64,000 nt of DNA from a virus (IMGVR_UViG_3300032267_001204:1-64000), one strand, 5' to 3'; shown: positions 20,040-33,521, counted from the first letter of the stretch. Made by a program: numbers and translations. The notes: a model not told the origin generated them from the sequence alone.

Positions 20040-22337
20040 ATGAACCTCGACATTACCCCCGAAGAATTTGGTATCCACCCCTGCCCCGAGTCCGGAGAAG
20101 GATGCCACGGCTGGATCTACGGCGCAGCCCATCGGCTCGTTGCTGCCGGCTTTGAAGACGATGAGATCGAGGCGTGGATCGAGGCGTACCTCAAACGCCC
20201 GTCCCAGCCCCGCGAAATTGCCAACACCCTGTCCAAGGTTCGGGCCGAAGCCGACGGGAAGATCGCGCCGCGCAAGAGCGTCGGAGCCAAACGCCCCAAA
20301 GATGAGGCGGCCGTCGCCAAGCTCTTGGAGGGCGGCCCGATCTCGGTTGAGGACTTCATCGCGTCGAGTCCCAGTCCGGTATCAATTGATACTACCACCG
20401 TTCTCAAGGCGCTATTCCCGGGAGAGAAGACCATTCTCTTCACCGATCAGATGTCCCAGGGCCAGCGAGTCTGGGACGAAGCCATCCCCCCAGAGGACGT
20501 AGATCGTCTGGGACGGACAAATACGCAGGGCGCTTGGTTTCTTCTTAATCCAGTCACCGGAGACTACGCCGAACGCGAGGGAGCCAAACCCTCCCGCCGG
20601 TCCGAAGCGACCATTTCCGCTTACAAACACGTCCTCGTCGAGTCCGACAACGTCAACCTCGGAGAGTGGCTCGCCATCCTGCGCCAGCTCGACCTCCCCA
20701 TCGTCTGCGTAACCCTCTCCGGCAATGCCTCGGCCCACGCTATCGTCCGGGTTTCCGCAGATAACCGAGATGAGTGGGTCGCCGCTGCCAAGAAGATTGC
20801 TGATCTCGTCGTTCCGCTCGGAGCCGACCCCAACGCCATCACCGCAGTCCGGCTCACGCGCCTCCCGGGGGTGGTGCGAAAAGACAACGGAAATACCCAA
20901 TCGCTGATTTGGTTCAATCCAGAGGCCGTGCCGACTGAAAAATGCGTTCTTAGTAAGCCAGAAGGATCAGATCCAGACGCGACCAAAGAAGAAGAGGCCA
21001 ATATTTCTTCCGAAACCGGTGGACGAAATGACGACTTCTCCGACATTTATTACGACGGCAAAGCCTATTTCATGCGCTCCGCCGACGGGATCTGGCGGTA
21101 TGAGCTGGCAGGAATGCTTCACTCTGCACTCAAGGTGCGCGGCTACGCCGACAGCGCACCCAAGGGGCGAGCGACCCAAATGGACGTAGCCAAAGGCATC
21201 ATCCGCGAACAGCGCCGAGTCGATGGCGCAGGCCCTCGCCTCTACAGCCCCCACGAAACATGGGCAGAAGGCGGCAAAAGATTCCTCAACACCGCTTGCA
21301 CCAAGATCATGCCGGCCGCGCCGACCGCCGGAGCATGGGGTGAGTTCTTCCCGCGCTACGCCGGAGTCCTCGACAACACCTTTACCTGCCCCTCGTACAA
21401 GGACACCTTCTTGGCTTGGTTCAAACGCTTCTACGAGTCCGCCGAGGTGGGCGAATTGCAGCTAGGGCAGGCCCTCGCCCTGGTAGGCCCCGTCCAGTGC
21501 TTCAAATCCTTCATCATCGAGCAGATCCTCCGCCCCGCGATGGGCGGCTACGCCGACCTGTCCTCGATCGTCAGCGGCGAAAGCAACGGCTTTAACAGCG
21601 AACTCTACCACTCCCCCTTGGCCGTCATCGACGACTCCAAGGCGGCCGAGTCCGAGGCCCAGCTCAACCGGTATGCCAGCGCCATTAAGAAGTTGGCGGC
21701 CCATGGTCGTCACAAATACCACGAAAAGTTTGTGACACCGATCCTCGTCGAATGGAAAGGCCGCGTGATCATCGCGGCCAACGACGACGCGGTGTCGATC
21801 AAGTCAGTTCCGGCCCTCGACATTAGCAATGAGGACAAGCTCATCGTCCTAGCCATGCAGACATGGGAAGAAAACCCCGGCCCCGACGCCTTGCGCGACG
21901 TTGTCGAGGAACTCCCCCACCTCCTCGCATGGCTCAAGGAGTGGGACTATCCCAGGGGCCTCGTGGACCCCGGCTCGCGGTACGGGATTCGGAGCGTCGT
22001 GGCGCCCGAGATCCGAGACAAGATGGAGGCATCCGCGAGGACAGCAGAGCTGACCGACACCCTGCGCCTGTGGCGGAAACGAATGCCGGTCGAAGAACGT
22101 GACATTGTTTGGCTCGGGACCTCCGTGGAGCTTCACCAGTCCTTCAATGTGGTCTTCGACAACTCGTCCCTGACTAACCAGTGGCCGGTTCGGGTGCTGG
22201 GGGCTCGGATGCAACAGCTTTCCAACAAGCCCGACTCCGGCGTCAGCATCGCGCAGCGGCGGTACGGCAAGGAGAAGGTGACCCTGTGGAGGATCGAGCC
22301 ACCAGGGCCGGAGACGCCGGACGAGAATCCGTTCTGA
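20040..22337 (+). CDS. Primase (AEP/RepB-like) fused to a P-loop (D5/SF3-like) helicase
   Basis: VLVESD, SGNASAHA, RLTRLPG primase motifs; C-terminal GPVQCFKS, AVIDD, IIAAN. Confidence 0.8.
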   Translation: MNLDITPEEFGIHPCPESGEGCHGWIYGAAHRLVAAGFEDDEIEAWIEAYLKRPSQPREIANTLSKVRAEADGKIAPRKSVGAKRPKDEAAVAKLLEGGPISVEDFIASSPSPVSIDTTTVLKALFPGEKTILFTDQMSQGQRVWDEAIPPEDVDRLGRTNTQGAWFLLNPVTGDYAEREGAKPSRRSEATISAYKHVLVESDNVNLGEWLAILRQLDLPIVCVTLSGNASAHAIVRVSADNRDEWVAAAKKIADLVVPLGADPNAITAVRLTRLPGVVRKDNGNTQSLIWFNPEAVPTEKCVLSKPEGSDPDATKEEEANISSETGGRNDDFSDIYYDGKAYFMRSADGIWRYELAGMLHSALKVRGYADSAPKGRATQMDVAKGIIREQRRVDGAGPRLYSPHETWAEGGKRFLNTACTKIMPAAPTAGAWGEFFPRYAGVLDNTFTCPSYKDTFLAWFKRFYESAEVGELQLGQALALVGPVQCFKSFIIEQILRPAMGGYADLSSIVSGESNGFNSELYHSPLAVIDDSKAAESEAQLNRYASAIKKLAAHGRHKYHEKFVTPILVEWKGRVIIAANDDAVSIKSVPALDISNEDKLIVLAMQTWEENPGPDALRDVVEELPHLLAWLKEWDYPRGLVDPGSRYGIRSVVAPEIRDKMEASARTAELTDTLRLWRKRMPVEERDIVWLGTSVELHQSFNVVFDNSSLTNQWPVRVLGARMQQLSNKPDSGVSIAQRRYGKEKVTLWRIEPPGPETPDENPF

Positions 22338-22946
22338 GGCTGGCAGCCTGAAGCATGAAGCATGAAGCCTCCTTCGTGAGGCACAATGTCAGGTTAAACG
22401 GCCGGATGACTGCGACTGAGCAATCATTACTGGGGGATTCCTAGGTGTTCCCCCAGCGAAAAAAGACTCCATCCCCCACGTTAAGTTGCTTCGCGCCAGC
22501 GATTTAGGTCGATCTGGGGGACGAGGGGGAGGGATTCGGGGAATGCGGGTGGCGGAACGACGGGAGGGGGGCTACAGCCGTATATATAATATTTTTTGTT
22601 ATAGAGAAACACTGTAGGAATCCCCCTTTCCCCCAGATTTGTAGTATGTCTCTGTCGGACAGCGATTTAAGCCCTGTTTTTGACTGGGGGAAAGCCTGGG
22701 GGAAAGGGGGAAAGCCCCCCTAAAAGTGGGGTTAAACGCGAGTTTAGGGGGAAAGGCCTGCCGAAAACGCGGTTTTCGGGGGTTTCTGAGTTTAGCCCAC
22801 ATTCTGAGGGTCAGTATGTCGGGAATCCCGACAATCAACCTGAAGCATGAGGCGTAAAGCCTCTTTCGTGAGGCGCTATACCCGATAAGGTCGCCGTCAG
22901 GCGACATCCCAGAGAAGACGGCGAACGACGACACCGGGAAAGCTTA
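22338..22946. other. Non-coding origin-like or genome-end region
   Basis: AT-rich core at 22581-22603; repeated (CT)GGGGGAAAG; 16-bp inverted pair 22621-22636 / 22696-22711; flanking direct repeats TGAAGCATGA...GCCTCYTTCGTGAGGC. Confidence 0.55.
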
Positions 22947-22975
22947 GTGCAAACCGTAGGACTTTGTTCGCAAGT

Positions 22976-23001
22976 GCATACACTTCGCAACAAGTGTATG
23001 C
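22976..23001 (-). terminator. Hairpin downstream of the leftward transcription unit
   Basis: GCATACACTT-6nt-AAGTGTATGC, perfect 10-bp stem 5 nt after the stop of 23006-23224. Confidence 0.4.
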
Positions 23002-23005
23002 GTTC

Positions 23006-23224
23006 CTATCCAAGGTGGAGTCCTCGGTCATCGAGGATTTCAATAACTCGCGCCCGGACGCGCTCGAAAGTCCGATACTCCTCGGCGGTGTGTTCGCCGT
23101 GCTTGATCTGGGACCTGAGGTATTGCAAGAGGTCGTCCATCGCCCATCTCCAATCCGAACCCTGGCGGGCGTCGGTCAGCGCGGCGTCGTCCTCTGGGAG
23201 GTGGAACTCAAGGGTAGCTTTCAT
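23006..23224 (-). CDS. Conserved hypothetical phage protein
   Basis: MKATLEFHLPED...LRSQIKH, a pattern recurrent in aquatic phages. Confidence 0.7.
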   Translation of the reverse strand: MKATLEFHLPEDDAALTDARQGSDWRWAMDDLLQYLRSQIKHGEHTAEEYRTFERVRARVIEILDDRGLHLG

Positions 23225-23301
23225 AAAGTGGGGCGGGGTCCGGGATTTCCCCAGTAAACGAGCGTCACAGTTTAGAAAGCTGCCGCACGACCCCCACCAT
23301 T

Positions 23302-23370
23302 TTGCAGGACCGGGAATCGAACCCGGAGAGCCGGCTTATGAGACCAGCTTAGGATCCAACCTTTCCTGCG
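23302..23370 (-). tRNA. Non-canonical tRNA-Met(CAT)-like gene with a short D-arm
   Basis: CGCAGGA/TCCTGCA acceptor (C1:A72 mismatch), CTCATAA anticodon loop, CCGGG-TTCGATT-CCCGG T-arm; 69 nt; no encoded CCA. Confidence 0.7.
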
Positions 23371-23373
23371 GGG

Positions 23374-23403
23374 TTAATATCCTTGCGTTTGCAAGTGTGT
23401 CAA
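23374..23403 (-). promoter_or_regulatory. Sigma70-like promoter for the tRNA-like gene
   Basis: Perfect TTGACA (23403-23398), then GATATT or TATTAA at 16-18 bp; spacer contains the palindrome CTTGC-N4-GCAAG. Confidence 0.5.
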
Positions 23404-23913
23404 ACGGCTCCCCTGATTGTTGCGGTTATCAGCCGGTTAATAAATGCAAAATCCCGGGAAAAATTAATTTCCCATCAAATGATATGTAACTGCTGCGAAA
23501 TTGGTGGTCAGAGGGGACCGTGGTGGATCGGGTGGTGGGTCACAGATTCAGGATCCGTGCGCTTTCTACCGATCATCTCTGTATTGTGCCGCATTGTGAC
23601 GAGAACCATGAAGCATGGATATTGCTGCAAGCCTCTGTGCATCAATGACTTACGCAAAAAGGGGCAAATCAGCCTCTAACAGAGTAGCATCGGGCCAAAA
23701 AGCCCACCTCTACACAACATATAGGGGAAAATCCGGCCCTTTTGATTGATTCGCCCTGCTTTTCAGGGGGTTTCCCTCCTTTGGCCTCATAACCTGCCTA
23801 CCGATTAACAGAGTAAAACGCCGTGTCCCGTCCATTTATTCATGGATGAAAGCTCCATCGGAGCCGGAATCCACTCAAGTAGAAACAAAGAGCCATGCTC
23901 CAAGCATCGCTCA

Positions 23914-23931
23914 ACTCAACATCCGTTGAGT
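23914..23931. repeat. Palindrome A copy 1, ACTCAAC-ATCC-GTTGAGT
   Basis: Read directly; 19 nt before the first early ATG. Confidence 0.9.
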
Positions 23932-23950
23932 CGTTAGCTCGTTAGACAAC

Positions 23951-24355
23951 ATGAAAACACACAAACTCGTTACCTCGTTCTGCAACGGAATCCTCCAAGG
24001 CGAAACGCTCCGCGAAACGCTCATCCAGCTTGCCGCTGAAATGGTCGAGACGATCGGCAAGCGTGACGCTGCGAAGCAAGTCCGCGCAGAGTTGAAAACC
24101 CCTCGCTTCATCAATGCCCTCGTCGGCGAAGGGAAGCGTTACAAGAACGAGCGGTCGTGGGAAGTCCGCGTCTCGTTCATCCTCTGCAACTACGGCCTGA
24201 AGGCCAAGTCGTCGGAGGGAAGCGGCAAGAAAGTTGCGCCGCGTCTCCGCTCCGAAGGTTCCAAGATCGCTGCCAAGCTGCTCGCTAACTTCGAGAAAGC
24301 TGAAGCGGTGAGCATCCTCCGCGTTGCCTTGGAAGAAGCCAAGGCCGCTGAATAA
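23951..24355 (+). CDS. Hypothetical early protein (basic, helical)
   Basis: First gene of the early array; its stop codon overlaps palindrome copy 2. Confidence 0.75.
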   Translation: MKTHKLVTSFCNGILQGETLRETLIQLAAEMVETIGKRDAAKQVRAELKTPRFINALVGEGKRYKNERSWEVRVSFILCNYGLKAKSSEGSGKKVAPRLRSEGSKIAAKLLANFEKAEAVSILRVALEEAKAAE

Positions 24356-24372
24356 CTCAACATCTGTTGAGT
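24355..24372. repeat. Palindrome A copy 2, ACTCAAC-ATCT-GTTGAGT
   Basis: Read directly; right arm is also the 5' arm of a long UUCG-capped hairpin extending to about 24418. Confidence 0.9.
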
Positions 24373-24445
24373 GAGAACAACAGCGCAGGGCTTCGGCCCT
24401 GCGTTGTATCTTGCTCAAAGCGGCAAGCGTGGCGCGATTCACGCA

Positions 24446-24473
24446 CCATGAACCATGAACCATGAACCATGAC
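24446..24473 (+). repeat. Tandem CCATGAA x4 ending in a start codon
   Basis: ccatgaa ccatgaa ccatgaa ccatgac. Confidence 0.8.
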
Positions 24474-24675
24474 CCTAAAACCACTACCCCGATTAACTGA
24501 TGCCGAGCTGAAGCGAGAAGCCGACGCGATTGTGCGTTACAACGAACACCGCAATCCCTTCTTTGGTAAAGTTTCGTTCGGCGAGTTTTGTCGTATCCCA
24601 TACATGACTCCCGCCGAGATTGCGGACGCCTCGCCGGAGTTGCAACACGCCGCCACGTTCTGGAGCGATCTATGA
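24469..24675 (+). CDS. Hypothetical early protein
   Basis: Coupled ORF in the early array. Confidence 0.6.
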   Translation: MTLKPLPRLTDAELKREADAIVRYNEHRNPFFGKVSFGEFCRIPYMTPAEIADASPELQHAATFWSDL

Positions 24676-24899
24676 ACGCTAACACCCGAGCCAAGAAACT
24701 TGAGCGGCTATTTATCGCTGCCGCTTTCGAACCACGCACAAACAAGGAGTTCGATCACAAACCAGAGGCGTTGCGAACCGAGTTCTGGCAGCTTCATCGT
24801 CGTCTGCCGCACTCCGCCCCCGCGCTTTGGGAGCGGTTCAAGAAGCGCATGGAGCGCACGGGCCGTTTGTCCGAAGGCACATCGTGGAGATACGAGTAA
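24672..24899 (+). CDS. Hypothetical early protein
   Basis: ATGA coupling (MNANTRAKK...). Confidence 0.6.
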   Translation: MNANTRAKKLERLFIAAAFEPRTNKEFDHKPEALRTEFWQLHRRLPHSAPALWERFKKRMERTGRLSEGTSWRYE

Positions 24900-24936
24900 T
24901 CACATCGGCGCATCCTTCGGGGTGCGTCGAGGTGTC

Positions 24937-24956
24937 GAATCAGAGTGTTCTGATTC
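24937..24956. repeat. Palindrome B copy 1, GAATCAGA-GTGT-TCTGATTC
   Basis: Read directly; 4 nt upstream of palindrome A copy 3. Confidence 0.75.
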
Positions 24957-24960
24957 GCCG

Positions 24961-24978
24961 ACTCAACATTCGTTGAGT
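24961..24978. repeat. Palindrome A copy 3, ACTCAAC-ATTC-GTTGAGT
   Basis: Read directly. Confidence 0.9.
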
Positions 24979-25041
24979 GAACCCTCTGGCATGAGGGGCA
25001 ACAAACTCCCCGAAAGGCGAGCATCATGCCACACCACGAAC

Positions 25042-25233
25042 ATGGAAACAGGAATACTGCCCAAGAAAAAGCTGCCCCGCTTCCGCGAGGCGGCGAAAGA
25101 CGAGGGACGTCCCCTCGCCTTCGAGCCAACCCCCAAGGAACTCGAAGACGAAAGGTCGCGCTATCTGGCGGCCAACAACCGCAACTTCGGGACGAATCTG
25201 GCTTTCGTCATTGACTTCGTCCCGAAATCATAA
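25042..25233 (+). CDS. Hypothetical early protein
   Basis: METGILPKKKLP...; start follows an AC-rich leader. Confidence 0.55.
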   Translation: METGILPKKKLPRFREAAKDEGRPLAFEPTPKELEDERSRYLAANNRNFGTNLAFVIDFVPKS

Positions 25234-25243
25234 CCTCATCACC

Positions 25244-25456
25244 ATGAGCCATGAAACAAGGTTCCTTAACCCTGATCCACAGCCCCAGGCCGATCCGGCC
25301 GAGTGGCGTCCGAGTGCCGAACGCGAGTGGCGTCGCGAAGTCGGCGGCATCGAAGCCGAGTGCAAATGCCCTGATTGCGAACCCCGCAAGGCAAAGGGCG
25401 AATTCGGTTTCTACCATCCTGCAACAAATGAACGCGGAGGTCGATATGCGGAGTAA
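25244..25456 (+). CDS. Hypothetical early protein with CxCxxC
   Basis: MSHETRF...ECKCPDCEP. Confidence 0.55.
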   Translation: MSHETRFLNPDPQPQADPAEWRPSAEREWRREVGGIEAECKCPDCEPRKAKGEFGFYHPATNERGGRYAE

Positions 25457-25564
25457 CCACTACAAAACCAAGTGTCTGGAGAAGCTGGTCTTATTGTCCC
25501 TGCTCCTCCTCTGGATGCTGTTCGCTCTGCTGTAATAACCACAACACCAAAAAAGTAGATAAGT

Positions 25565-25909
25565 ATGGCTAACTACAAAACCGAGTTCCCTGATTACGAC
25601 GACACCCTTCCAGAGTTGGGAGGATTCACCGACTCGTCGTGGCGCAACGATGCCTGTCCGAGCCTCTCGAAAGAGATCAGCGACGACCTGCATCCCAAGA
25701 CGATCACGATCTTTGTCGATTACAAAGACCGCGCATTGTCGGAATGCCCCGAGGTTTTCTTCAACGATCATGGCGACTACTACCGCTTTGTCATCGTCGA
25801 GTTCACCCCTTGGGCCGGAGAGAACGGGCAACGCGTGTTGCTGGCAACTAACGATTGGACAGAGGTCTCTGACTTCGCCGCCGATCTCAACTCAACGAAT
25901 GTTGAGTAA
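25565..25909 (+). CDS. Acidic hypothetical early protein
   Basis: EFPDYD...DSSWRNDACPS; last codons (NSTNVE*) are encoded by palindrome copy 4. Confidence 0.75.
   Translation: MANYKTEFPDYDDTLPELGGFTDSSWRNDACPSLSKEISDDLHPKTITIFVDYKDRALSECPEVFFNDHGDYYRFVIVEFTPWAGENGQRVLLATNDWTEVSDFAADLNSTNVE
25890..25907. repeat. Palindrome A copy 4, ACTCAAC-GAAT-GTTGAGT
   Basis: Read directly; exact reverse complement of copy 3. Confidence 0.9.
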
Positions 25910-25928
25910 CCATAAATCCTATCACGCG

Positions 25929-26294
25929 ATGAAAACATATCCCAAACAACGACACATCTTCCCGAAACATCCTCACAAGAATCCGGAAGGTCCGATAACG
26001 GCATGGGTCTACAACGGCCTTCACGATCCGGAGGAGCCCTATGCCAACTACATCATCGAGGAGATCAGGTGGATCGAGCATCTTGACGAGCCAGCCTTCA
26101 TGCTCGTTCTGGAGAACTCCTCGTTCATCAAGCCTCGCCTCGAAGACCTTGAGCCGCTGCTGTTCAAGTGGCTCGAAGACGAAGGTGTGCGCCTCGTGCA
26201 TCTCAACGCCCAAGACGCGAGCGAAACCCCCCGACAAATGGCGTTCGCACCGCGCAAATGCCCAACCTGCTGCCAACCCATCCCTGAGGAGTGA
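25929..26294 (+). CDS. Hypothetical early protein
   Basis: MKTYPKQR...LEDLEPLLFKW...CPTCCQP. Confidence 0.65.
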   Translation: MKTYPKQRHIFPKHPHKNPEGPITAWVYNGLHDPEEPYANYIIEEIRWIEHLDEPAFMLVLENSSFIKPRLEDLEPLLFKWLEDEGVRLVHLNAQDASETPRQMAFAPRKCPTCCQPIPEE

Positions 26295-26363
26295 AACTCC
26301 GCACTCCCTGCCCCCACAGGGAGTGTCAGTCTCACTCAACAGATGTTGAGTAGGGAAATAACC
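26286..26363 (+). repeat. Composite element: long hairpin, palindrome A copy 5 (26334-26351), AGGGAAATAACC
   Basis: About 80-bp near-repeat of 26937-27016, with a different inner stem sequence that keeps the pairing. Confidence 0.85.
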
Positions 26364-26385
26364 AAACAACCAACATGGAGGTAAC

Positions 26386-26925
26386 ATGAAAAGAAAAACC
26401 CTAACAATAGTCCCATCCGCCGTTGATCAGGCGATCAAGCCGAAGCCAAGCCGCGCCGAGATCATCGAGGCCGCCGTTCAGTTGCGGCTGGAGGAACTCC
26501 AGAAGGAAGCCGAGGTCGTCGCGAATCACAACCAACGTCTCAGTGACGCTGTCGTTGCGTTGATCCCCGCTGCTGTCGATGGCGTTTGCAAAAACGGAAC
26601 GCTTGCGAAATCACTAAAGGACAACGAGACGATCTACTACTACCGCAATTGGGCTGACGAAGATCATCTCTCCGTTACAATTAAGATCGAAAAAAGCGAC
26701 CTGACGTTGAAGTTGCAAGCCGCACTCGCCAACGAGCGCGACAACCGCAAAAACCCTCCGTATCTCAGCGTGGATCAAATCCGCCGAGAGGTGAAGCAAG
26801 GGCTGAAACCCTCGGCTGATCCGGCTGGCCGGGTCAAAGCGTTGCTTGCCGATAGCGACAGCCGCACCGCTTTGCAGAGCCTTCTCAAAGCGGTCTATCC
26901 GAAACCCGAAGCGGTTGAAGTATGA
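26386..26925 (+). CDS. Hypothetical early protein
   Basis: GGAGG RBS; 179 aa, helical. Confidence 0.75.
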   Translation: MKRKTLTIVPSAVDQAIKPKPSRAEIIEAAVQLRLEELQKEAEVVANHNQRLSDAVVALIPAAVDGVCKNGTLAKSLKDNETIYYYRNWADEDHLSVTIKIEKSDLTLKLQAALANERDNRKNPPYLSVDQIRREVKQGLKPSADPAGRVKALLADSDSRTALQSLLKAVYPKPEAVEV

Positions 26926-26936
26926 GTGGTAAGCGA

Positions 26937-27016
26937 GAGGAGTGAGACTCCGCGCCCCTTCCAACTCTGGGAGGGGCGTCAGTCTCACTCAACAGATGTT
27001 GAGTAGGGAAATAACC
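26937..27016 (+). repeat. Composite element: long hairpin, palindrome A copy 6 (26987-27004), AGGGAAATAACC
   Basis: GAGTGAGACT-CC-GCGCCCCTTCCA-ACTC-TGGGAGGGGCGT-C-AGTCTCACTC. Confidence 0.85.
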
Positions 27017-27044
27017 GAAACACCTAACATGGAGATATAACACC

Positions 27045-27653
27045 ATGCCTATTGCAAAAGTAAATCTGTCGGCCCTCGGCACCAAGCCGAAGGGAAACAC
27101 GAAATCGTATCCTGTGCTTCCGCTCAGCGATGAGCTGAAGGGATTCGTCAGTGATTACCTGAAGAACACGCAGGATATCGAGACGCTGGAAGGTGCGAAC
27201 AAGCAGCTCCGCGCTTACCTCGAAGTCGAGGCGCGTCGCTACTACTACCAGCACCACAGCGGCAAGCTCGACGTCGAGTCTTCGCTCGAAGCTCCTTCGA
27301 GCAACGGCCAATCGTTGCTGCTCACCTGCCAGAACCGCTACAAGGCGTTGCCCGACGAGGCACCCATCGTAGCGGCCATCGGCGAGGAGCGCACCGAGCG
27401 GCTCTTCTACAACTCGGTCGATGTGAAGATCGACGGCGACAAGATTCCGGCGGACAAGATCAATGATCTGTTTGCGGAAGTGGCGGCGGTCTTTGCCAAG
27501 TTTGGCGCGACTGATGCCTTGTCGCACCGCTCTGTCATCAAGCCCACGCCGGAGTTCCACACCGCCCGGCACACGATCCTCTCGGTCGAGGAGAACCTCG
27601 CCGTCGATCAGGCCACGCCGTTCACGTTGGCATTCAAAACCAAGCGCCGCTGA
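27045..27653 (+). CDS. Hypothetical early protein
   Basis: GGAG RBS; 202 aa; coupled to the ligase-like gene. Confidence 0.75.
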   Translation: MPIAKVNLSALGTKPKGNTKSYPVLPLSDELKGFVSDYLKNTQDIETLEGANKQLRAYLEVEARRYYYQHHSGKLDVESSLEAPSSNGQSLLLTCQNRYKALPDEAPIVAAIGEERTERLFYNSVDVKIDGDKIPADKINDLFAEVAAVFAKFGATDALSHRSVIKPTPEFHTARHTILSVEENLAVDQATPFTLAFKTKRR

Positions 27654-28270
27654 TGAACCCGCCAACCTTTCCTGCGCGGCCGATGAACGGCGGCCCGTTG
27701 GATCGGGCTAAGGAGAAGCCTGAACCCGAAGCATGGTTCTATGAACCCAAGATCAACGGCTGGCGTGTTCTCATCGACGTGAAGAACAAGAAGATGTGGA
27801 CGCGTTACAACCGACCATCATCGGTCGAGCATAAGTATGCGGCGGTTCTGGAACGAATCGCAGCGCAGTTCTCCGGCGACGAGGTAACGTGGCTCGACGG
27901 CGAGATCCTCGGGCAACGGGCCAGCTCTATCGGGCGCGGCTCGCTCGTCATCTTCGACGTGGCTTGGCCGCGTTGGAAGGATTGGTCTATACTCCACGAC
28001 CGGCGACGACTGCTCGACGTTATGTTCGATAACGTCAACGAAGTCTGGGACATCGACAGGCTGCCGAGTCAGGACACGATCTACCGGTTGCCCCGAATCT
28101 CCGGCGCCGACGCGCTGGAATACTACGAGCGGATGCAAATCGCCAACCAACGCTTCGGCCTTGAGTTATACGAAGGCGTTGTGGCGAAGAACATGCACAA
28201 AGAATACCCGACACAGCTTCGATCCGCTACGGAGGAGACTCCTTGGTGGGTCAAACATCGTTGGGACTAA
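27653..28270 (+). CDS. ATP-dependent ligase-family nucleotidyltransferase (adenylation domain only)
   Basis: Motif I EPKINGWR, III LDGEIL, IIIa IFDV, IV EGVVAK, V WWVK; the ORF ends right after motif V. Confidence 0.8.
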   Translation: MNPPTFPARPMNGGPLDRAKEKPEPEAWFYEPKINGWRVLIDVKNKKMWTRYNRPSSVEHKYAAVLERIAAQFSGDEVTWLDGEILGQRASSIGRGSLVIFDVAWPRWKDWSILHDRRRLLDVMFDNVNEVWDIDRLPSQDTIYRLPRISGADALEYYERMQIANQRFGLELYEGVVAKNMHKEYPTQLRSATEETPWWVKHRWD

Positions 28271-28289
28271 CCACAAAGGAGGTGAACAA

Positions 28290-28751
28290 ATGAGAAAGAT
28301 GTCTATCGAATGTGCGATGGAAATCTGGAAGGCCGGCGGCGGCGTTGCCGCCAGCGAATGGCAGGAGAAGTCCGGCTATTCACGCGGCGGCCCGATCTAC
28401 AAGCGGCGAGCGACTCCCGTTTTCTGTCGGGAGTTGACTCGGGAGGGCCTCGAACTCGAAGCGATCAACCCGCACGAGGACATTGCTTCCTACTATCGGA
28501 GCATTCTTGCCTACGTCACTGGTCGTTATCCGAAAGCGCGCAAGGTCATCGTGGTCAACGACCCGGTCGGGCTGCGGACCGCGTGTATGGATGCGGAAAT
28601 CCCAGAGCCAAGGTTTGACGCCTTGATGGGCCAATGGGATCTCGGCAACACAGTAGCGAGCCAGCGCGTATGGCAGGCCCAGGCCAAGCCGCGCTATGCG
28701 TGGCAAGGCCTTGTGAAAAGGCTTGATCCGGCTCCGGCTCTGGGTTCATAA
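28290..28751 (+). CDS. Hypothetical early protein
   Basis: Strong AAGGAGGTGA RBS before ATG at 28290. Confidence 0.7.
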   Translation: MRKMSIECAMEIWKAGGGVAASEWQEKSGYSRGGPIYKRRATPVFCRELTREGLELEAINPHEDIASYYRSILAYVTGRYPKARKVIVVNDPVGLRTACMDAEIPEPRFDALMGQWDLGNTVASQRVWQAQAKPRYAWQGLVKRLDPAPALGS

Positions 28752-28762
28752 CCTGCCAACCG

Positions 28763-28862
28763 GAATCAGAACCTTCTGATTCTGGGAGGAACACCATCCC
28801 TTCTCACTCAACAAATGTTGAGTCTGGGAGGGGATGGCATCCTCCCCGCAACATCAGTTGCG
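28763..28862 (+). repeat. Composite element: palindrome B copy 2 (28763-28782), palindrome A copy 7 (28806-28823) at the apex of a long hairpin, variant CGCAAC-ATCA-GTTGCG (28847-28862)
   Basis: GGAGGA..CCATCCCTTCTC-[A7]-CT-GGGAGGGGATGG..TCCTCC. Confidence 0.85.
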
Positions 28863-28898
28863 ACGGAGATCATAACCTAACTACCAAAGGAGGTATAC

Positions 28899-30584
28899 AT
28901 GCCCATCAAATACTACACCCCCACGCTCGACAAAGCGGTGAAGGATCACCACATCGACTACCGAGTGCGGGGCCGACTGCCAGAAACTTACGACCTGCAA
29001 TGGGTCGATAAGCGTCATCCGTGCAAGACCGGCTGCTGGCGTTTCGACCACGCGTCGGGTCGCCACGAGATCCGTTTGTCCCAGATCTGCTACGACACCC
29101 TGACCAAGGGCGGAGCAGCACACGGCAAGCGGGTCGCCGTGCCTGACCTGTATCGCAACGTCTACGAACACGAGGCAGCGCACTCGCTCTACACGACCAA
29201 AGACCTCGAAGGTCTCGGCAAGATTCTTGCCGCCGAGAAAATCCCTTGGCGGCTGATGAACTTGTTCGAGGACTGCCGCATCGAGCGTAATTGGATCCTC
29301 CGCGAACGCGCTGGCAAGTCGTTTCGCTGGACTCGTTGGGAGGAGCATCCGCCCGCCTCCAAGATGAGCGCGAGCAGCTTGCTCTTCCACATGAAGACCG
29401 AAGGCTTGACCCGCAGCGGGTATCGCTTCCCTCGGTCGTTCATCATTGCCCATCGGGCACACCCCAACTGGCGGAAAGTCTACGACTATTACCGCAGCAT
29501 CGTCGGATGTGGAGGGACCGAAGACCTCGTGCCGATCCTCAAGGACTGGCTCAAGGACTTCCCCGCTACGGGTGACGACACCATCGAGGGTGAAGGCGGC
29601 GATGGAACCGGCGACATGGGCGAGGCGATCGGCGAGGCCACGGGGACGCGCCCCGAGGACGTCAAAGCGAAAGACCCCAAAGGCGAAGGCGCATCGCCGG
29701 AGACCAAGTCTGGAGACGGCGAGAGCGAGGGCAAGGGCAAAGGCGGCAAGGCCGGCACTCGTGCCGAGTCCACCACGTCACCGACCCACGGACGCGGCAG
29801 CGGCGGCTCCGCTTCCGAAGTCGTGCCGACCATCGACCACGAGGCTGAGCGTTCGCTCCGGCTGGCGCAACTGCTGGCCCAAGCGTTCCGCAAGAACGGC
29901 ATCATCGCCAAAGGGCCAACGGCCCGTCCGTCCAAGCGGCTCAACCTGCGCGGCTTGCTGCGCGGCGACTGGTCTCGTCCGTTCGTCGGCAAGACGATCG
30001 GCAACACGAACAAGCCGCACATCTCGTTCGTCATGGATTGCTCGGGCAGCATGAGTTGCCTGACTCACCTTGATCGTTCGCGCAAGGTTGAGCTTCGCAC
30101 CGATGACTGTGGTCGAATCCTTGCTCGTGCGTTGAACGAGCTGGCTCGCCTTGGTCACATCACCGGCATCGTCTACGGCTCATCGGATGGCGGCTGCCAT
30201 TCGCGCACCGAGCTGCCCGTCCCAAACCATGTGCTGACGATGGACGCTGGCCTCGAAGCCTTCTCCGGCTCCGAGGGTATCGGCCTCACGTTGGCGCCCG
30301 GCTGCAAGCCCGGCTGCTACCCGAAGAAAGGCTCCGGCTCGTTCTTCGAGGAGATCGCCGCCAAGTCCAAGATTGCCATCGTCTACACGGACGGCTGCAT
30401 CACGGACGCTCCGGTCAATCGTATGCCGCTCCGTGCGCGGGGCGTCTACACCATCGGCGCCTACGCCGGACCGGACAAGACCGCCGCACTACGCCACCAC
30501 TTCGATTACGTCATCAGCCGTGACTCGTTGTGGGGCGTAGCCGATGCGCTCGTCCGCACCCTGAAGTCCATCCCGCGCAAGTAA
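28899..30584 (+). CDS. HExxH metallopeptidase-like domain, acidic Gly-rich linker and vWA domain (CobT-like)
   Basis: YEHEAAH...NLFEDCRIER; MIDAS DCSGSMS and YTDG. Confidence 0.85.
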   Translation: MPIKYYTPTLDKAVKDHHIDYRVRGRLPETYDLQWVDKRHPCKTGCWRFDHASGRHEIRLSQICYDTLTKGGAAHGKRVAVPDLYRNVYEHEAAHSLYTTKDLEGLGKILAAEKIPWRLMNLFEDCRIERNWILRERAGKSFRWTRWEEHPPASKMSASSLLFHMKTEGLTRSGYRFPRSFIIAHRAHPNWRKVYDYYRSIVGCGGTEDLVPILKDWLKDFPATGDDTIEGEGGDGTGDMGEAIGEATGTRPEDVKAKDPKGEGASPETKSGDGESEGKGKGGKAGTRAESTTSPTHGRGSGGSASEVVPTIDHEAERSLRLAQLLAQAFRKNGIIAKGPTARPSKRLNLRGLLRGDWSRPFVGKTIGNTNKPHISFVMDCSGSMSCLTHLDRSRKVELRTDDCGRILARALNELARLGHITGIVYGSSDGGCHSRTELPVPNHVLTMDAGLEAFSGSEGIGLTLAPGCKPGCYPKKGSGSFFEEIAAKSKIAIVYTDGCITDAPVNRMPLRARGVYTIGAYAGPDKTAALRHHFDYVISRDSLWGVADALVRTLKSIPRK

Positions 30585-30593
30585 CCCTGCCTC

Positions 30594-30659
30594 GGGAGAC
30601 ACACCTCCCCTTCCCGCTCTGGGAGGGGGAGTTAGTCTCTCACTCAACCAATGTTGAGT
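30594..30659 (+). repeat. Composite element: long hairpin and palindrome A copy 8 (30642-30659)
   Basis: GGGAGAC..CTCCCCTTCCC-GCTCT-GGGAGGGGGAG..GTCTCTC-ACTCAAC-CAAT-GTTGAGT. Confidence 0.85.
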
Positions 30660-30735
30660 TCGGGAGTTAAACACAACCCCCTCTGGTATGCGGGGAACCG
30701 AATCATTCTGATTCCGTTGCATACCAAACATTAGC

Positions 30736-32103
30736 ATGTCCGATAAACATACATCCAAATACACGCACGAGCTGATCGACTCTATGTCGTGGAAGATGCT
30801 GCGCGCTGCGGCGAAGGAGGAACTCGAAGCCCAAGGATTCAAAGGCTCGTGGTCGTCCGACTGCCAGACGCCTCGCCTCAAGGCGATGCTCAAGGGAGAG
30901 ATGACTGTCGCCGAAGCGGAGGCCGCTGTCCTCGCTGACAAGGCGAAGAAAGCTGGCATCTCGCTCGGCGGCGGCATCGACGCCACTGCGCTCAAGCCGC
31001 TCGAAGCCAAGCTCACCGAGCTGGCGGGTATCATCTCGTCGCTCGACGACGAGGTGACTACGGCCAAGTCCGAAGCGGCCAAGCTCGTCGGCGACTTGCA
31101 CACGGAAATGTCCGATCGACTCACCGAGTCGCACGAGGCCTTCACCAAGCTGCAAGATGCCGTCACCTCGGCCCTTGCCAGCGGCGGTTCGGCTGCGGCC
31201 AAGGTCATCGCTCCGATCCTCGGGGTGCCGACGCCTTCCTCGTCTGACCCCGCGGTCATGGCGCTGGAGCTGTTCTGCGCTCCAGGCCGTGCGATCAAGC
31301 CGCTGCTCGTCAAGGGCGGCCAAGGTGCGGGCAAGACCTACGCTGGGCGTCAGCACGGCATGACCGCCGGCTTTGACCGCTGCATCGAGTTCGGCGTCCA
31401 CTCCCAGACTGAGGCCGTGGACTTCCTTGGCATGATGATGCCGAGCGGCGAGTGGCTCGACGGCCCCCTGACCGAGGCGTTTCGCGCTGCGGCTCTGGGA
31501 CAGCTCGTCTTGCTCATCATCGACGAGATCTATCGCGGCCAGAACGGCGCTCGCACGCCGCTCCTCACGGCCACGTCTCCCGCCCGTCTGCCGAGCGGCG
31601 AGAAGGTCTACCGACTCCGCACGGGTCGCGCCATCATCGATCCGGTGACTGGCGTCCACACCTCCGAGATCATCGAGGCTCCTTGCCAGAACCTCGCCAT
31701 CGTTGCCACGACCAACGTCGGGGCCGAGTTCAACGTCGATCCGGGCTGCCCCGCCGAGCGCGAGCGGTTCATCCCTATTCACGTCGAGGTTGACGAGGTC
31801 AAGATCCGCGCTGTCTGCGGCGCCATCGCCACGGCCAAGGGCTTCAGCCCCTCCGTGGTTGACCGCACACTCGCCTTCTACCGCGAGTGCAACGTCCTCA
31901 AGACGGACGGGTTCATCGAACTCTGCCCGTCCACCCGCATCCTCTCCGAGGCGATCGAATACGCCGACAGCGAGGCCAACGTGAAGTCGATGCTGCGCTC
32001 GCTCGGCCTGCACATCTGGGTCGGCACCACCATCGAAGGCAAGCCCGAGGAAGAGCAAGTCAAGCGCGTCACCACCGCACTCGACAAGGCCTTCGGGAAA
32101 TAA
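30736..32103 (+). CDS. MoxR/CbbQ/CobS-like AAA+ ATPase with N-terminal coiled coil
   Basis: Walker A GGQGAGKT, Walker B IIDE, sensor ATTN, R-finger ERF, STR. Confidence 0.88.
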   Translation: MSDKHTSKYTHELIDSMSWKMLRAAAKEELEAQGFKGSWSSDCQTPRLKAMLKGEMTVAEAEAAVLADKAKKAGISLGGGIDATALKPLEAKLTELAGIISSLDDEVTTAKSEAAKLVGDLHTEMSDRLTESHEAFTKLQDAVTSALASGGSAAAKVIAPILGVPTPSSSDPAVMALELFCAPGRAIKPLLVKGGQGAGKTYAGRQHGMTAGFDRCIEFGVHSQTEAVDFLGMMMPSGEWLDGPLTEAFRAAALGQLVLLIIDEIYRGQNGARTPLLTATSPARLPSGEKVYRLRTGRAIIDPVTGVHTSEIIEAPCQNLAIVATTNVGAEFNVDPGCPAERERFIPIHVEVDEVKIRAVCGAIATAKGFSPSVVDRTLAFYRECNVLKTDGFIELCPSTRILSEAIEYADSEANVKSMLRSLGLHIWVGTTIEGKPEEEQVKRVTTALDKAFGK

Positions 32104-32123
32104 CCTAGACACCTAACGCGTAA

Positions 32124-32151
32124 CCGCCCTCTCCAATCTGGGAGGGGGCGG
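32124..32151 (+). repeat. TCTGGGAGGG-family hairpin without palindrome A
   Basis: CCGCCCTCTCCA-ATC-TGGGAGGGGGCGG, preceded by GGGAAATAACC..ACACCTAAC as at 27005. Confidence 0.65.
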
Positions 32152-32166
32152 CCGCACCAAAACACC

Positions 32167-32607
32167 ATGGTTAATTCAAGTGGATTCATCGAGGGCATTA
32201 AATCCCTCTACAATCAGGGCGTTCGTAAGATCGTCACCGATTTCAGCGGCGGAGGCGACTCCGGCGATATCAACTACATTGCGTTCTTTAGCGCGGGCGG
32301 TTCGGAAAAGCTGACCGTCGAAGAGCCACTCGACTGGCGGGATGAGATGCACAAGATCATCACCAACGAGGTTCATTGCGACTGGTATAACAATGAGGGA
32401 GGCGGCGGTTCGATCGTCATCAACCTCGAAGCCAATCCGCCGACCATCGAGGTCAACTCGTATTGGAACGAGACTGTCTGCCGCGACGAGCCGACTGTGA
32501 CTGACACGCTGGATCCGATGCTCGTGCTGCCGAAGCCGGACGTCCCAGAGCATCCTCACGCGGCTGTCCGCGCTGCCAAGAAGCTGCCGAAACGGGGGGC
32601 CAAGTAA
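32167..32607 (+). CDS. DUF6878-like protein
   Basis: FSGGGDSG...DWYNNEGGGG. Confidence 0.7.
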   Translation: MVNSSGFIEGIKSLYNQGVRKIVTDFSGGGDSGDINYIAFFSAGGSEKLTVEEPLDWRDEMHKIITNEVHCDWYNNEGGGGSIVINLEANPPTIEVNSYWNETVCRDEPTVTDTLDPMLVLPKPDVPEHPHAAVRAAKKLPKRGAK

Positions 32608-33014
32608 TGCACCCGTATCACCACGCGCTCTCCAGCGCCAAGAAGTTCGGAGGCCAGCCCGAAGACTACCTCGCGATCCATCACTGGTTCGACGAGTCGA
32701 AGGAACAGTTCGCCAACTTCCGCCATCGTGCGCTGCGTCATCACGCGCAGGGCATCTACGAGTGTGAGCGCAAGTTCGGCATCACCATGACCAACTCGGA
32801 CGGGCGCACGTTGCCTGTCCGTTACATCGGCGAGCAGCACGTCAACGAGGACATCGGGTTCATCCCGTCCCTCCAAGACTGGCTCTCCGCCATCGTCCCA
32901 GAGCCGTGGATGCGAAGTCGCCCCCATGGCGTGGACAAGAACACCGAGGACGAGGCCGTCAATCGACGGACTGTCCGCAAAACCAACACAACCAAGAAGG
33001 AGATCAAACTATGA
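32607..33014 (+). CDS. DUF6915-like His-rich protein
   Basis: MHPYHHALSSAKKFGG..DY..IHHWFD.SK...RHRALRHH...EQHV.ED. Confidence 0.75.
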   Translation: MHPYHHALSSAKKFGGQPEDYLAIHHWFDESKEQFANFRHRALRHHAQGIYECERKFGITMTNSDGRTLPVRYIGEQHVNEDIGFIPSLQDWLSAIVPEPWMRSRPHGVDKNTEDEAVNRRTVRKTNTTKKEIKL

Positions 33015-33268: not shown

Positions 33269-33287
33269 CCAGAAAGGAAAACATATC

Positions 33288-33521
33288 ATGTTACAGATCA
33301 TACAACGCCCCCTCCTCACCGGAGGGCTTGAAACCGAATACCTCGAAGTCCCCTCGCCCGAGAAGGTCGCCGCCGAGGTCGAACGCATCGAGTTCGAGCG
33401 CAACTCGTGGGCGCGCAAACGCTACGCAGCGTTCGCCAACTACGATGTGGACACGCTTACGTTCGACGATGAACCCGGCCACATTGTCCCAGACCATGAA
33501 CCCGTGGAGGAATATCTATGA
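33288..33521 (+). CDS. Hypothetical protein
   Basis: AAGGA RBS. Confidence 0.6.
   Translation: MLQIIQRPLLTGGLETEYLEVPSPEKVAAEVERIEFERNSWARKRYAAFANYDVDTLTFDDEPGHIVPDHEPVEEYL

What the first reader, a model, noticed from the sequence alone, without database searches (positions are those of the whole stretch)
23914..30659. Eight ACTCAAC-N4-GTTGAGT palindromes punctuate the early gene array like cassette boundaries
Seen: perfect 7-bp arms at 23914, 24355, 24961, 25890, 26334, 26987, 28806 and 30642, all at gene junctions. Two overlap the end of the upstream gene, and one encodes its last residues NSTNVE*. I saw no full copy outside this 6.8-kb block. Known: the arms match the integron core consensus RYYYAAC/GTTRRRY, and cleavage at AA|C and G|TT would give a 6-bp overlap, typical of tyrosine-recombinase simple sites. 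Inference: either (a) a dispersed repressor operator or roadblock network silencing the early operon, like L5 stoperators, or (b) minimal recombination sites making the accessory genes a shufflable cassette array.
Basis: partly seen in the sequence, partly recalled or inferred. Interest (0 to 1): 0.85.

Follow-up and report, generated by a model that had tools for sequence, protein, structure and literature searches.

The report
Swappable palindromes punctuate a phage gene array
Eight identical 18-base palindromes mark the gene junctions of a small-gene array in an uncultured freshwater phage; close relatives carry a different palindrome at the same junctions, matched to a different first gene, so they look like binding sites for that gene's product rather than integron-type recombination sites.

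Summary
There are eight exact ACTCAAC-N4-GTTGAGT sites, none expected by chance and none elsewhere in the 72,313-bp genome. Six are intergenic and two overlap gene ends.

New points:
- The centre is asymmetric (NRAT). Three sites are inverted relative to the other five.
- Two relatives at about 90% identity carry only 1-2 such sites. They carry seven copies of a second palindrome (AATCAGA-N4-TCTGATT) at the same junctions.
- One site is a clean 22-bp indel.
- In four lineages the first ORF of the array (126-134 aa, no known family) is flanked by that lineage's own palindrome.
- One of these proteins is modelled as a homodimer.

Best reading (0.45): lineage-specific sites recognised by the first-gene product, forming a dispersed control network over the array. 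This resembles L5 stoperators or phiC31 CIRs (both recalled). Whether recognition is on DNA or RNA is unresolved. The sites also lie at mosaic breakpoints, as PeSLs do.

The integron/Xer reading is not supported: the sites are too short, have no attC architecture, and no matching recombinase was found. No binding or expression data exist.

The parts
23914..23931 (-). Family A palindrome, site 1 (centre ATCC on +, i.e. GGAT inverted). It lies 19 nt before the ATG of the first array ORF.
24355..24372 (-). Family A site 2 (centre ATCT on +). Its first base is the last base of the TAA stop of ORF 23951-24355.
24961..24978 (-). Family A site 3 (centre ATTC on +). It is present as a clean 22-bp indel relative to both close relatives.
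25890..25907 (+). Family A site 4 (GAAT). It lies inside the last codons of ORF 25565-25909 (…NSTNVE*).
26334..26351 (+). Family A site 5 (AGAT), with flanks TCTC…A-GGGA. Relatives have family B at this junction.
26987..27004 (+). Family A site 6 (AGAT), a paralogue of the site 5 module. Relatives have a small hairpin plus family B here.
28806..28823 (+). Family A site 7 (AAAT), nested in the loop of a GC-rich hairpin. It is present in G002 and absent in G001.
30642..30659 (+). Family A site 8 (CAAT), conserved in all three genomes.
24937..24956 (.). Family B palindrome GAATCAGA-GTGT-TCTGATTC, 4 nt upstream of site 3.
28763..28782 (.). Family B palindrome GAATCAGA-ACCT-TCTGATTC, 23 nt upstream of site 7.
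30700..30714 (.). Shortened family B copy (GAATCATTCTGATTC). The relatives have a full copy here; this copy is 15 nt shorter.
23951..24355 (+). First ORF of the array ('g1', 134 aa), with no known family and unique to this genome among the three. It is flanked by sites 1 and 2 and is the candidate cognate binder.
24380..24407 (+). 12-bp GC-rich hairpin just after site 2. The consensus scan listed it only on the minus strand; my plus-strand reading is inferred from the fold.
   Evidence: (I6)
26953..26978 (+). GC-rich junction hairpin (CGCCCCTTCCA…TGGGAGGGGCG). Similar hairpins lie at 26302-26325, 30605-30631 and 32124-32151.
   Evidence: (D7)
24444..24487 (+). CATGAAC heptad repeats downstream of g1. 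Related copies lie at 22344-22387 and 22836-22879. A similar repeat follows the first array ORF in the distant relative L134.
   Evidence: (D4)

Best explanation
The eight palindromes are copies of one short cis-element (8+2+8 bp with an asymmetric centre). They mark the gene junctions of the small-gene array downstream of the primase in an uncultured, apparently temperate freshwater phage.

They belong to a set of interchangeable, lineage-specific palindrome families. I infer that each family is recognised by the small dimeric protein encoded by the first ORF of the array, whose own gene is bracketed by the cognate palindrome. Binding at its own gene and at downstream junctions would give array-wide control. 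On DNA this would be repression or roadblock. On the mRNA it would be control of read-through or stability through the hairpin.

Because the elements are identical short sequences at gene boundaries, they also sit where segments have been exchanged between relatives.

Shown: existence, regional restriction, junction placement, A/B swaps between close relatives, and co-variation with the first ORF in four lineages. Inferred: that the first-ORF protein binds the sites, the sign of regulation, and the DNA versus RNA level (I lean 60:40 to DNA).
For: Identity and placement:
- Eight exact copies against 0 expected, all within 6.7 kb of a 72-kb genome.
- All 14 arm positions are invariant in 8 of 8 copies, while two centre positions vary. 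Not even wobble-neutral transitions are seen in the arms. This argues for sequence-specific recognition.

Family swaps between close relatives:
- G001 and G002 align at 67-97% nucleotide identity, mostly 85-96%.
- They carry 1 and 2 exact A sites but 7 copies each of AATCAGA-N4-TCTGATT in their first 18 kb.
- These sit at the same junctions. At g7|g8 and g8|g9, A replaces B inside otherwise conserved junction sequence.

Co-variation with the first ORF:
- G000: A lies 19 nt before the ATG and on the stop of the 134-aa ORF.
- G001/G002: a one-mismatch B lies about 22 nt before the ATG, and B lies on the TAA of a different 126-aa ORF.
- L142: CGTTTAAGAAAACCTTAAACG lies on both sides of a 129-aa ORF.
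- L134/L136: a TGTCCG…CGGACA palindrome lies before the ATG and on the TAG of a 133-aa ORF.
- The G001 and L142 ORFs are homologous (31% identity).

Other support:
- The G001-type protein is modelled as a symmetric homodimer. Score 0.60, best of 3 controls 0.00. The mark was reached by 20 of 30 proteins solved as pairs of one chain and by 1 of 23 solved as single chains. Runs agree in at least 97% of contacts, and partner pLDDT is at least 75. The tool words this as support for binding, not a demonstration.
- Residues 26-71 of g1 match a repeat (6 matched stretches by phmmer; BLASTP shows it at seven places) in the C-terminus of a 1228-aa SF2 helicase. I take this only as a hint of a nucleic-acid-associated module.
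- The RHH-like ORFs are 93-98% identical across the A- and B-type phages, so they are not the specificity determinant.
Against: - No DNA- or RNA-binding domain was detected in any first-ORF protein with Pfam, PHROGs, NCBIfam or PDB sequences. Fold searches gave nothing above helical background.
- g1 of this window is not detectably homologous to the G001/L142 protein or to the L134 protein. The 'one family' idea rests on position, size and a language-model lead.
- The model leaves orphans: 3 B copies in G000, 1 exact A in G001 and 2 in G002.
- Centre and left flank are asymmetric. (TC)TC precedes the left arm in 6 of 8 copies when they are oriented by the centre (read). A symmetric dimer does not explain this.
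- Site 3 is a clean 22-bp indel, which looks like insertion of a unit rather than in-place operator evolution.
- The extended stems around sites 5-8 use U·G pairs that work only in plus-strand RNA. Sites 2 and 6 have competing RNA folds. Both points favour an RNA-level role.
- One relative with 10 kb held downstream of the primase (L144) shows no recurrent palindrome.
- There are no expression or binding data.
Confidence: 0.45

Rival explanations
1. RNA structural modules only. The palindromes are one kind of hairpin in multi-hairpin intercistronic regions of a polycistronic mRNA, serving stability, processing or pausing. They are kept identical by recent copying and by selection on pairing, with no dedicated binding protein.
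For: - The A hairpin is part of the minimum-energy fold at 6 of 8 sites. Junction segments fold far better than shuffles (z from -3.7 to -7.95 at 7 of 8; site 4 gave -1.27).
- Sites 5-8 extend into longer stems with U·G pairs.
- At g8|g9 the relatives have a different small hairpin within the same outer CTC/GGG stem. At g11|g12 the outer stem differs on both strands between G000 and G001 yet still pairs.
- Junctions hold 2-3 tandem hairpins.
Against: - No wobble-neutral substitution occurs in 56 arm pairs, although the loop varies.
- B is palindromic through its centre (consensus ACGT; perfect 10+10 in 2 of 7 G001 copies), and the L134 type is 9+1+9. A hairpin loop does not need this.
- Structure alone does not explain why the palindrome type co-varies with the first ORF across lineages.
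- No T-run follows the sites, and the terminator scan listed none of them.
Confidence: 0.25
2. Selfish or passively spreading palindromic mini-elements, like REP/BIME elements or MITEs. A unit of about 22 nt is copied into junction hairpins in either orientation, with little function of its own. The first-ORF cassette merely carries copies at its ends.
For: - Site 3 is a clean 22-bp presence/absence difference.
- Site 7 sits in the loop of a pre-existing hairpin that is intact without it in G001.
- Both orientations occur, and centre and flank polarity are kept (flanks read).
- Copy number differs 8 versus 1-2 between about 90% identical genomes.
- The gene-flanked-by-its-repeat layout recalls REPtrons (recalled).
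Against: - No target-site duplication is visible at site 3.
- No HUH/Y1 transposase or other transposase family was found in the ORFs scanned. By my own reading of the printed sequences, g1 and the G001 protein have a single His and no HUH motif.
- In IMG/VR only these three genomes have more than one copy. Of 28 stretches with ACTCAACNRATGTTGAGT, 27 hold one site, which by my rough estimate is about the number chance would give.
- Copies are confined to one operon rather than spread over the genome.
Confidence: 0.12
3. Site-specific recombination sites (integron attC-like or Xer/dif-like simple sites) that make the accessory genes a shufflable cassette array.
For:
- The 8+2+8 layout with a polar 2-bp centre (GA or AA) superficially recalls serine-recombinase crossover sites (recalled).
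- Segment swaps between relatives end at or next to palindromes (6 of 10 breakpoints within 45 nt, against 14% of random positions).
- One contig of a related phage keeps a 37-nt island around site 4 between two replaced segments.
Against: - The site is 18 bp, with no L'/L'' boxes, no extrahelical bases and no 57-141-nt attC (sizes recalled).
- The sister family B and the palindromes of distant relatives do not fit the consensus.
- No serine recombinase or IntI-type integrase was found among the ORFs scanned. The only integrase is a weak PF00589 hit at 7401-8687.
- No gene-order inversion or permutation was seen among the three genomes.
- Breakpoint proximity is confounded by intergenic placement. 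In the laid contigs about 6 of 30 listed joint ends lie within 45 nt, near the roughly 4 expected (my count, null).
Confidence: 0.03
4. Hairpin promoters for a virion-packaged RNA polymerase, as in N4. This was prompted by the 72-kb genome with terminal repeats, a 3,907-aa virion protein, and GGGA about 11-12 nt after the loop centre at sites 5-8.
For: - Genome size, terminal repeats and a 3,907-aa ORF.
- The distance from loop centre to GGGA at sites 5-8 (read) resembles the N4 promoter geometry as I recall it.
Against: - The giant ORF matches only a 'virion structural protein' PHROG, at residues 3295-3722. It has no Pfam family and no PDB sequence match.
- No RNA polymerase turned up in any large ORF scanned.
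- The genome has an integrase and a non-N4 gene set.
- Three of 8 sites point against the genes, and 4 of 8 lack GGGA.
Confidence: 0.02

Closest known systems
Dispersed repressor sites: L5/Cluster A stoperators and phiC31 conserved inverted repeats (CIRs)
   Same: Many copies of one short, sequence-exact site lie in short intergenic spaces of a temperate phage's operons. The site sequence is lineage-specific and would change together with the binding protein. (Stoperators: abstracts in the listing, PMC9283540 and PMC6550527. CIRs: recalled only; one search found no paper on them.)
   Different: - Stoperators are asymmetric 13-mers bound by a monomer and spread over the whole genome (PMC9283540 abstract). 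Here the sites are palindromes confined to one 6.7-kb array.
- The candidate binder has no recognisable HTH and is the first gene of the regulated array.
- Binding is untested.
PeSLs (promoter-early stem-loops) of T4-type phages
   Same: Repeated short junction modules containing stem-loops flank small genes without known homologs in a plastic region. Insertions, deletions and replacements between close relatives occur at them (abstracts of PMC2839356 and PMC4122927).
   Different: - PeSLs combine a sigma70-like promoter with a terminator. Here no promoter-like hexamers accompany the sites (one search lists none at them).
- The conserved core here is an exact 18-bp palindrome that co-varies with a neighbouring gene.
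- Mini-circles were not tested.
Lambda N / nut (boxB) antitermination
   Same: A small, fast-evolving first gene of an early operon is preceded by a lineage-specific hairpin that its product binds (recalled).
   Different: Lambda has two nut sites rather than eight. boxB is recognised through its loop, while here the loop is the variable part. No arginine-rich motif or boxA was identified. Not tested.
REP/BIME elements with RAYT transposases (REPtrons)
   Same: Short palindromes lie in intergenic space in both orientations, and the presumed cognate gene is flanked by copies (recalled).
   Different: There is no HUH/Tyr enzyme and no conserved GTAG-type 5' tetranucleotide. Copies are limited to one operon of a phage.
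Integron attC sites
   Same: Arms fit RYYYAAC/GTTRRRY, and sites follow ORFs at their 3' ends.
   Different: The site is 18 bp rather than about 57-141 nt, lacks inner L boxes and extrahelical bases, and has no IntI, attI or Pc. The sister family does not fit the consensus.

Membership tests
Integron attC | R''-L''…L'-R' architecture, imperfect, with extrahelical bases, about 57-141 nt (recalled) | tested here: not met
   The sites are perfect 7-bp arms plus 4 nt, 18 bp in all. No second pair of boxes appears in the flanks.
Integron attC | Adjacent integron integrase (IntI) with attI and Pc | tested here: not met
   The only integrase is at 7401-8687, 15 kb away, with PF00589 at 24.1 bits, below the 27.1 cut-off. 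No other recombinase was found in the ORFs scanned.
Xer/dif-type or other tyrosine-recombinase core site | Two arms of about 11 bp around a 6-8-bp central region (recalled) | tested here: not met
   With a 6-bp overlap, only 6 conserved bp remain per arm. The flanks beyond the arms are not symmetric (flanks).
Stoperator / CIR-type dispersed operators | Many copies of one exact site in intergenic spaces of the regulated operons | tested here: met
   Eight copies, 6 intergenic and 2 at gene ends, confined to the array.
Stoperator / CIR-type dispersed operators | Site sequence co-varies with the phage's binding protein | tested here: inconclusive
   Palindrome type tracks the first ORF in 4 lineages. 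However, orphan sites exist and the protein's function is unknown.
Stoperator / CIR-type dispersed operators | Repressor binds the sites and blocks transcription | not testable with these tools
   No binding or RNA data exist. No RNA run was listed.
PeSL | Composite of sigma70-like early promoter plus terminator stem-loop | tested here: not met
   None of the 5 promoter-like hits in 22000-38000 lies at a site. Five were found against 4.6 expected, and the terminator scan listed none of the sites.
PeSL | Indels and replacements between close relatives occur at the modules | tested here: met
   Six of 10 distinct breakpoints lie within 45 nt of a palindrome, with swaps and indels at junctions. 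This is confounded with intergenic position.
REP/RAYT (REPtron) | HUH/Tyr (Y1) transposase gene flanked by the repeats | tested here: not met
   The first-ORF proteins match no transposase family. No HUH motif is visible in the sequences (my reading).
N4-type hairpin promoter | Virion RNA polymerase present | tested here: inconclusive
   The 3,907-aa ORF has no RNAP match by PHROGs, Pfam or PDB sequence. Its fold was not modelled.
Intrinsic terminator | GC-rich stem followed by a T-run | tested here: not met
   The arms have 3 GC pairs of 7, no T-run follows, and the sites are not in the scan's list.

The most novel reading that the evidence does not exclude
The first ORF and its two flanking palindromes form a self-contained, exchangeable 'specificity cassette'. 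A dimeric protein of unknown fold recognises an 18-21-bp palindrome, and perhaps helps to spread it. Copies of that palindrome then define the boundaries of accessory-gene cassettes. Swapping the cassette would re-address the whole array. That would be a protein-guided cassette or immunity system in phages that works without a canonical recombinase or a known DNA-binding fold.
Probability: 0.12. Interest if true: 0.85.

Novelty: new variant of a known kind. Interest (0 to 1): 0.55.

Why it matters
If the first-ORF proteins bind these palindromes, this uncultured freshwater phage group offers a natural specificity-swap experiment. Genomes about 90% identical have replaced one site family by another at the same junctions, together with one small gene. 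That would add a protein family with no known relatives to the list of phage regulators. It would also give a clean system for studying how a regulator and its many sites change together.

Independently of mechanism, the junction modules show how accessory genes are exchanged in a phage group unrelated to the T4-type phages in which PeSLs were described.

If the sites are only RNA hairpins or passive repeats, the finding is a tidy but ordinary example of repeated intercistronic structure.

Tried and rejected
Searches that led nowhere:
- Megablast of 23500-31000 against cultured phages gave no match. tblastn with the PolA found nothing above 32% identity, so there is no cultured relative and no literature on this phage.
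The 16.5-base pattern gave 28 stretches, 27 of them with one site.
- The metagenome-contig scan with the 561-aa protein gave 2 distant loci that I did not use.
- The genome-contig scan with a primase alignment gave one Verrucomicrobia MAG contig with a broken primase match and no A or B site. Host assignment stays open.
- Rfam at E up to 1 on 22000-38000 gave 3 weak, unrelated hits, none at a site.
- Two literature searches found nothing relevant. The phiC31 CIR search and the repeated-intergenic-palindrome search returned no relevant title among the rows listed (8 of 1,377 and 12 of 32 papers). So CIRs are cited from recall, and 'not described' rests only. Supplementary files were not consulted.

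Reads and expression:
- No RNA holder was listed for the stretch, so expression could not be examined.
- Laid contigs of four lake-water runs show much mosaicism. Two contigs (runs X3, X5) stop matching at 26333, the base before site 5. One X2 contig keeps 25888-25924 between two replaced segments. However, by my count only about 6 of 30 listed joint ends lie within 45 nt of a palindrome, close to chance. Eleven more joints were not shown.

The first-ORF proteins:
- Sequence searches for g1 found 2 near-identical proteins plus the helicase repeat. For the G001 protein they found 2 near-identical proteins.
- AlphaFold of g1 alone gave pLDDT 50.6 and is unusable.
- The model of the G001-type protein from a 5-row alignment gave pLDDT 68.1. 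Foldseek against the PDB found nothing at E up to 0.001, and the best VIA-align Z was 6.5, within helical background.
- Profile-profile comparison of the three first-ORF groups gave probabilities below 1%.
- g1 gave weak matches to sigma factors: PDB 8x6g_H at E 0.072, and TIGR02941 at 14.6 bits against a cut-off of 315. I treat these as noise.

Ideas considered and dropped:
- A and B half-sites share 5 of 8 positions. With free register this is not significant by my estimate, so I dropped it.
- The ATG created by the NRAT centre opens short ORFs that end 1-17 nt before the next gene, or run in frame into it at site 4. I judged this unproven, because stop codons are common just before start codons.
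- The first array ORF lacks a Shine-Dalgarno sequence. I considered a leaderless start and left it open.

Full report
**Observation.** None of 100 dinucleotide-preserving shuffles had any match. Relaxing to two mismatches adds nothing. The window is bases 1-64000 of a 72,313-bp virus record with direct terminal repeats, and the whole record holds only these eight. Isolated 7-mer arms occur at background frequency. Using ORFs that I called from GC3 periodicity, six sites are intergenic. One shares a single base with a TAA stop. One lies in the last codons of an ORF ending NSTNVE*. Only 13% of the span is non-coding.

The four central bases are not free. Oriented one way they read GGAT, AGAT, GAAT, GAAT, AGAT, AGAT, AAAT, CAAT. 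That orientation is inverted for sites 1-3 relative to sites 4-8. Oriented this way, six of eight copies are preceded by TC, mostly TCTC (flanks). The element is therefore polar and about 20-22 nt long, and it occurs in both orientations relative to the genes. A second palindrome, (G)AATCAGA-N4-TCTGATT(C), lies at three of the same junctions. GC-rich hairpins of a common type (CCCCTTCC…GGGAGGGG) accompany several sites.

**Genome context.** The phage is not N4-like despite its size and a 3,907-aa ORF.
- It encodes a tyrosine integrase (weak match), a helicase fused to a DUF2800 nuclease, a family A DNA polymerase, a C5 methyltransferase and a DUF5906 primase on the plus strand.
- After the primase comes an array of mostly unknown small ORFs, including a ligase-like ORF, a 561-aa ORF with no family match and a 455-aa ORF matching a PHROG annotated 'porphyrin biosynthesis'.
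- Structural genes lie on the minus strand.
- No RNA polymerase was found.
- There is no close cultured relative.
- Runs holding the sequence are lake-water metagenomes, and none is RNA.

**Close relatives.** Two complete IMG/VR genomes, G001 and G002, are collinear with this one, and most aligned blocks are 85-96% identical. G001 has one exact A site (the equivalent of site 8) plus one copy with one mismatch. G002 has two (sites 7 and 8). Instead, each has seven copies of the B palindrome within its first 18 kb, and these lie at the same gene junctions. The junction alignments show the following.
- At g7|g8 and g8|g9, A in this genome replaces B, or a small hairpin plus B, inside otherwise conserved sequence.
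- At g3|g4, A is a clean 22-bp extra segment next to a shared B.
- At g11|g12, A sits in the loop of a GC hairpin. That hairpin is intact without A in G001, and its outer stem differs on both strands between the genomes yet still pairs.
- At g12|g13, all three genomes have A followed by B.

**The first ORF co-varies with the palindrome.** Only four ORFs of this genome lack any counterpart in G001 and G002: 23951-24355, 25565-25909, 25929-26294 and 34078-34380. The first of these, g1, opens the array. Site 1 lies 19 nt before its ATG and site 2 lies on its stop.
- In G001 and G002 the same position holds a different 126-aa ORF. A one-mismatch B lies about 22 nt before its ATG and a B lies on its TAA.
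- In distant relatives (primase 43-57% identical) the pattern recurs with other palindromes. L142 has CGTTTAAGAAAACCTTAAACG on both sides of a 129-aa ORF and two more copies downstream. L134/L136 have a TGTCCG…CGGACA palindrome before the ATG and on the TAG of a 133-aa ORF, plus three more downstream.
- The G001 and L142 proteins are homologous.
- g1 and the L134 protein are not detectably related to them or to each other. The ESM Atlas places g1 and the G001 protein beside clusters with identical descriptors, which is only a lead.
- The RHH-like ORFs beside the integrase are 93-98% identical in all three genomes, so they cannot set A-versus-B specificity.

**What the first-ORF protein might be.** No family, solved relative or fold match was found.
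- g1 has only near-identical relatives, plus a match of residues 26-71 to a repeat in the tail of an SF2 helicase (6 matched stretches by phmmer; BLASTP shows it at seven places; helicase domains).
- The G001-type protein is predicted to be all-helical (pLDDT 68.1).
- It is modelled as a symmetric, extensively interlocked homodimer. The score is 0.60 and the best of 3 controls is 0.00. The mark was reached by 20 of 30 proteins solved as pairs of one chain and by 1 of 23 solved as single chains. Runs agree in at least 97% of contacts, and partner pLDDT is at least 75. This supports dimerisation in the tool's sense but does not show it.
- A dimer would suit a palindromic target.

**DNA or RNA?**
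- For DNA: B is palindromic through its centre (perfect 10+10 in two G001 copies) and the L134 type is 9+1+9, which a hairpin loop does not need. Orientation relative to transcription is mixed. No wobble-neutral change occurs in any of the 56 arm pairs while the centre varies.
- For RNA: the A hairpin is in the minimum-energy fold at 6 of 8 sites. Junction segments fold much better than shuffles at 7 of 8. Stems around sites 5-8 extend through U·G pairs that exist only in the plus-strand RNA. Sites 2 and 6 have competing folds with neighbouring hairpins. In three lineages the palindrome starts on the stop codon of the first ORF.
- I cannot decide between them. I lean 60:40 to DNA.

**Recombination.** Among the three genomes, 6 of 10 distinct similarity breakpoints inside the array lie within 45 nt of a palindrome in at least one genome, against 14% for random positions. 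The replaced segments are bounded by palindromes: the first-ORF cassette, and a 173-aa ORF bracketed by two B copies in G001. Contigs from other lakes break at the base before site 5, and one keeps a 37-nt island around site 4. Overall, however, the joint ends in those contigs are not enriched near palindromes. Both breakpoints and palindromes are intergenic, so this does not prove exchange at the sites. It resembles PeSL-mediated shuffling in T4-type phages (abstracts) more than site-specific recombination. For the latter, the defining features of attC or Xer sites are not met, and no matching recombinase was found.

**Verdict.** The feature is real and non-random. It is part of a wider trait of this phage group: lineage-specific palindromes at the junctions of the post-primase array, tied to the array's first ORF.
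- Best explanation (0.45): a dispersed set of sites recognised by that ORF's dimeric product, controlling the array.
- Rivals: protein-independent RNA hairpin modules (0.25), passively spreading mini-palindromes (0.12), site-specific recombination sites (0.03) and hairpin promoters (0.02). The remainder is unassigned.
- Novelty: a new variant of a known kind (dispersed operators, or junction cassettes). Interest is moderate to good, because the A/B swap between near-identical genomes makes the recognition hypothesis directly testable.

Noticed in passing
window 24444-24487, 22344-22387, 22836-22879; L134 15312-15332: Heptad repeats lie between the primase and the array: CATGAAC x4 just downstream of the first array ORF, and CATGAAG-type copies further upstream. 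A similar CATGAAC/CATGCAC repeat follows the first array ORF in the distant relative L134. They may be iterons or binding sites for another regulator.
   Followed up: partly
window 23302-23370 (-): A tRNA-Met (anticodon CAT) lies on the minus strand in the largely non-coding stretch between the primase and the array. It may relate to the attachment site, or it may be a phage tRNA.
   Followed up: no
window 23006-23224 (-); L134 13555-13830 (-): A small acidic ORF (72 aa) points away from the array. It begins MKATLEF and is visibly similar in the distant relative L134. It is the only clearly minus-strand ORF in this region, and its function is unknown.
   Followed up: no
window 38061-49784 (-): A 3,907-aa ORF whose only family match is a 'virion structural protein' PHROG at residues 3295-3722. 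It has no Pfam or PDB sequence match. The best tblastn segment is 53% identical over 1,285 aa in G001 and 94% over 2,729 aa in G002.
   Followed up: partly
window 23787-23835; L134 about 14769: A short element (TAACAGAGTAAA) about 100 nt upstream of the first array ORF is shared with G001, G002 and the distant L134/L136. It is a candidate promoter or regulatory element of the array.
   Followed up: partly
window 22583-22606: A very AT-rich stretch (TATATATAATATTTTTTGTTATAG) lies in an otherwise 58% GC genome, within the non-coding region after the primase. Together with the repeats nearby it might mark an origin.
   Followed up: no
L272 (JAPLTG010000043.1, Verrucomicrobia MAG): This was the only hit in the species-representative genomes. 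It is a 53-kb contig with a primase relative (50% identity in the best segment) whose match appears interrupted by an RHH-like ORF. It is a weak lead to the host phylum and could be a binning artefact.
   Followed up: partly
window, stops of array ORFs (e.g. 25233, 25535, 25909, 28270, 28751, 30584, 32103): Many array ORFs end in TAACC. The motif ATAACC also recurs in the leaders after the palindromes. It may be a preferred termination or re-initiation context.
   Followed up: no
G001 12005-12022: A ninth-type A copy with one arm mismatch and a GAAT centre (inverted) lies in a G001-specific segment further down the operon. This suggests A copies have been gained and lost outside the block seen in this window.
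   Followed up: no
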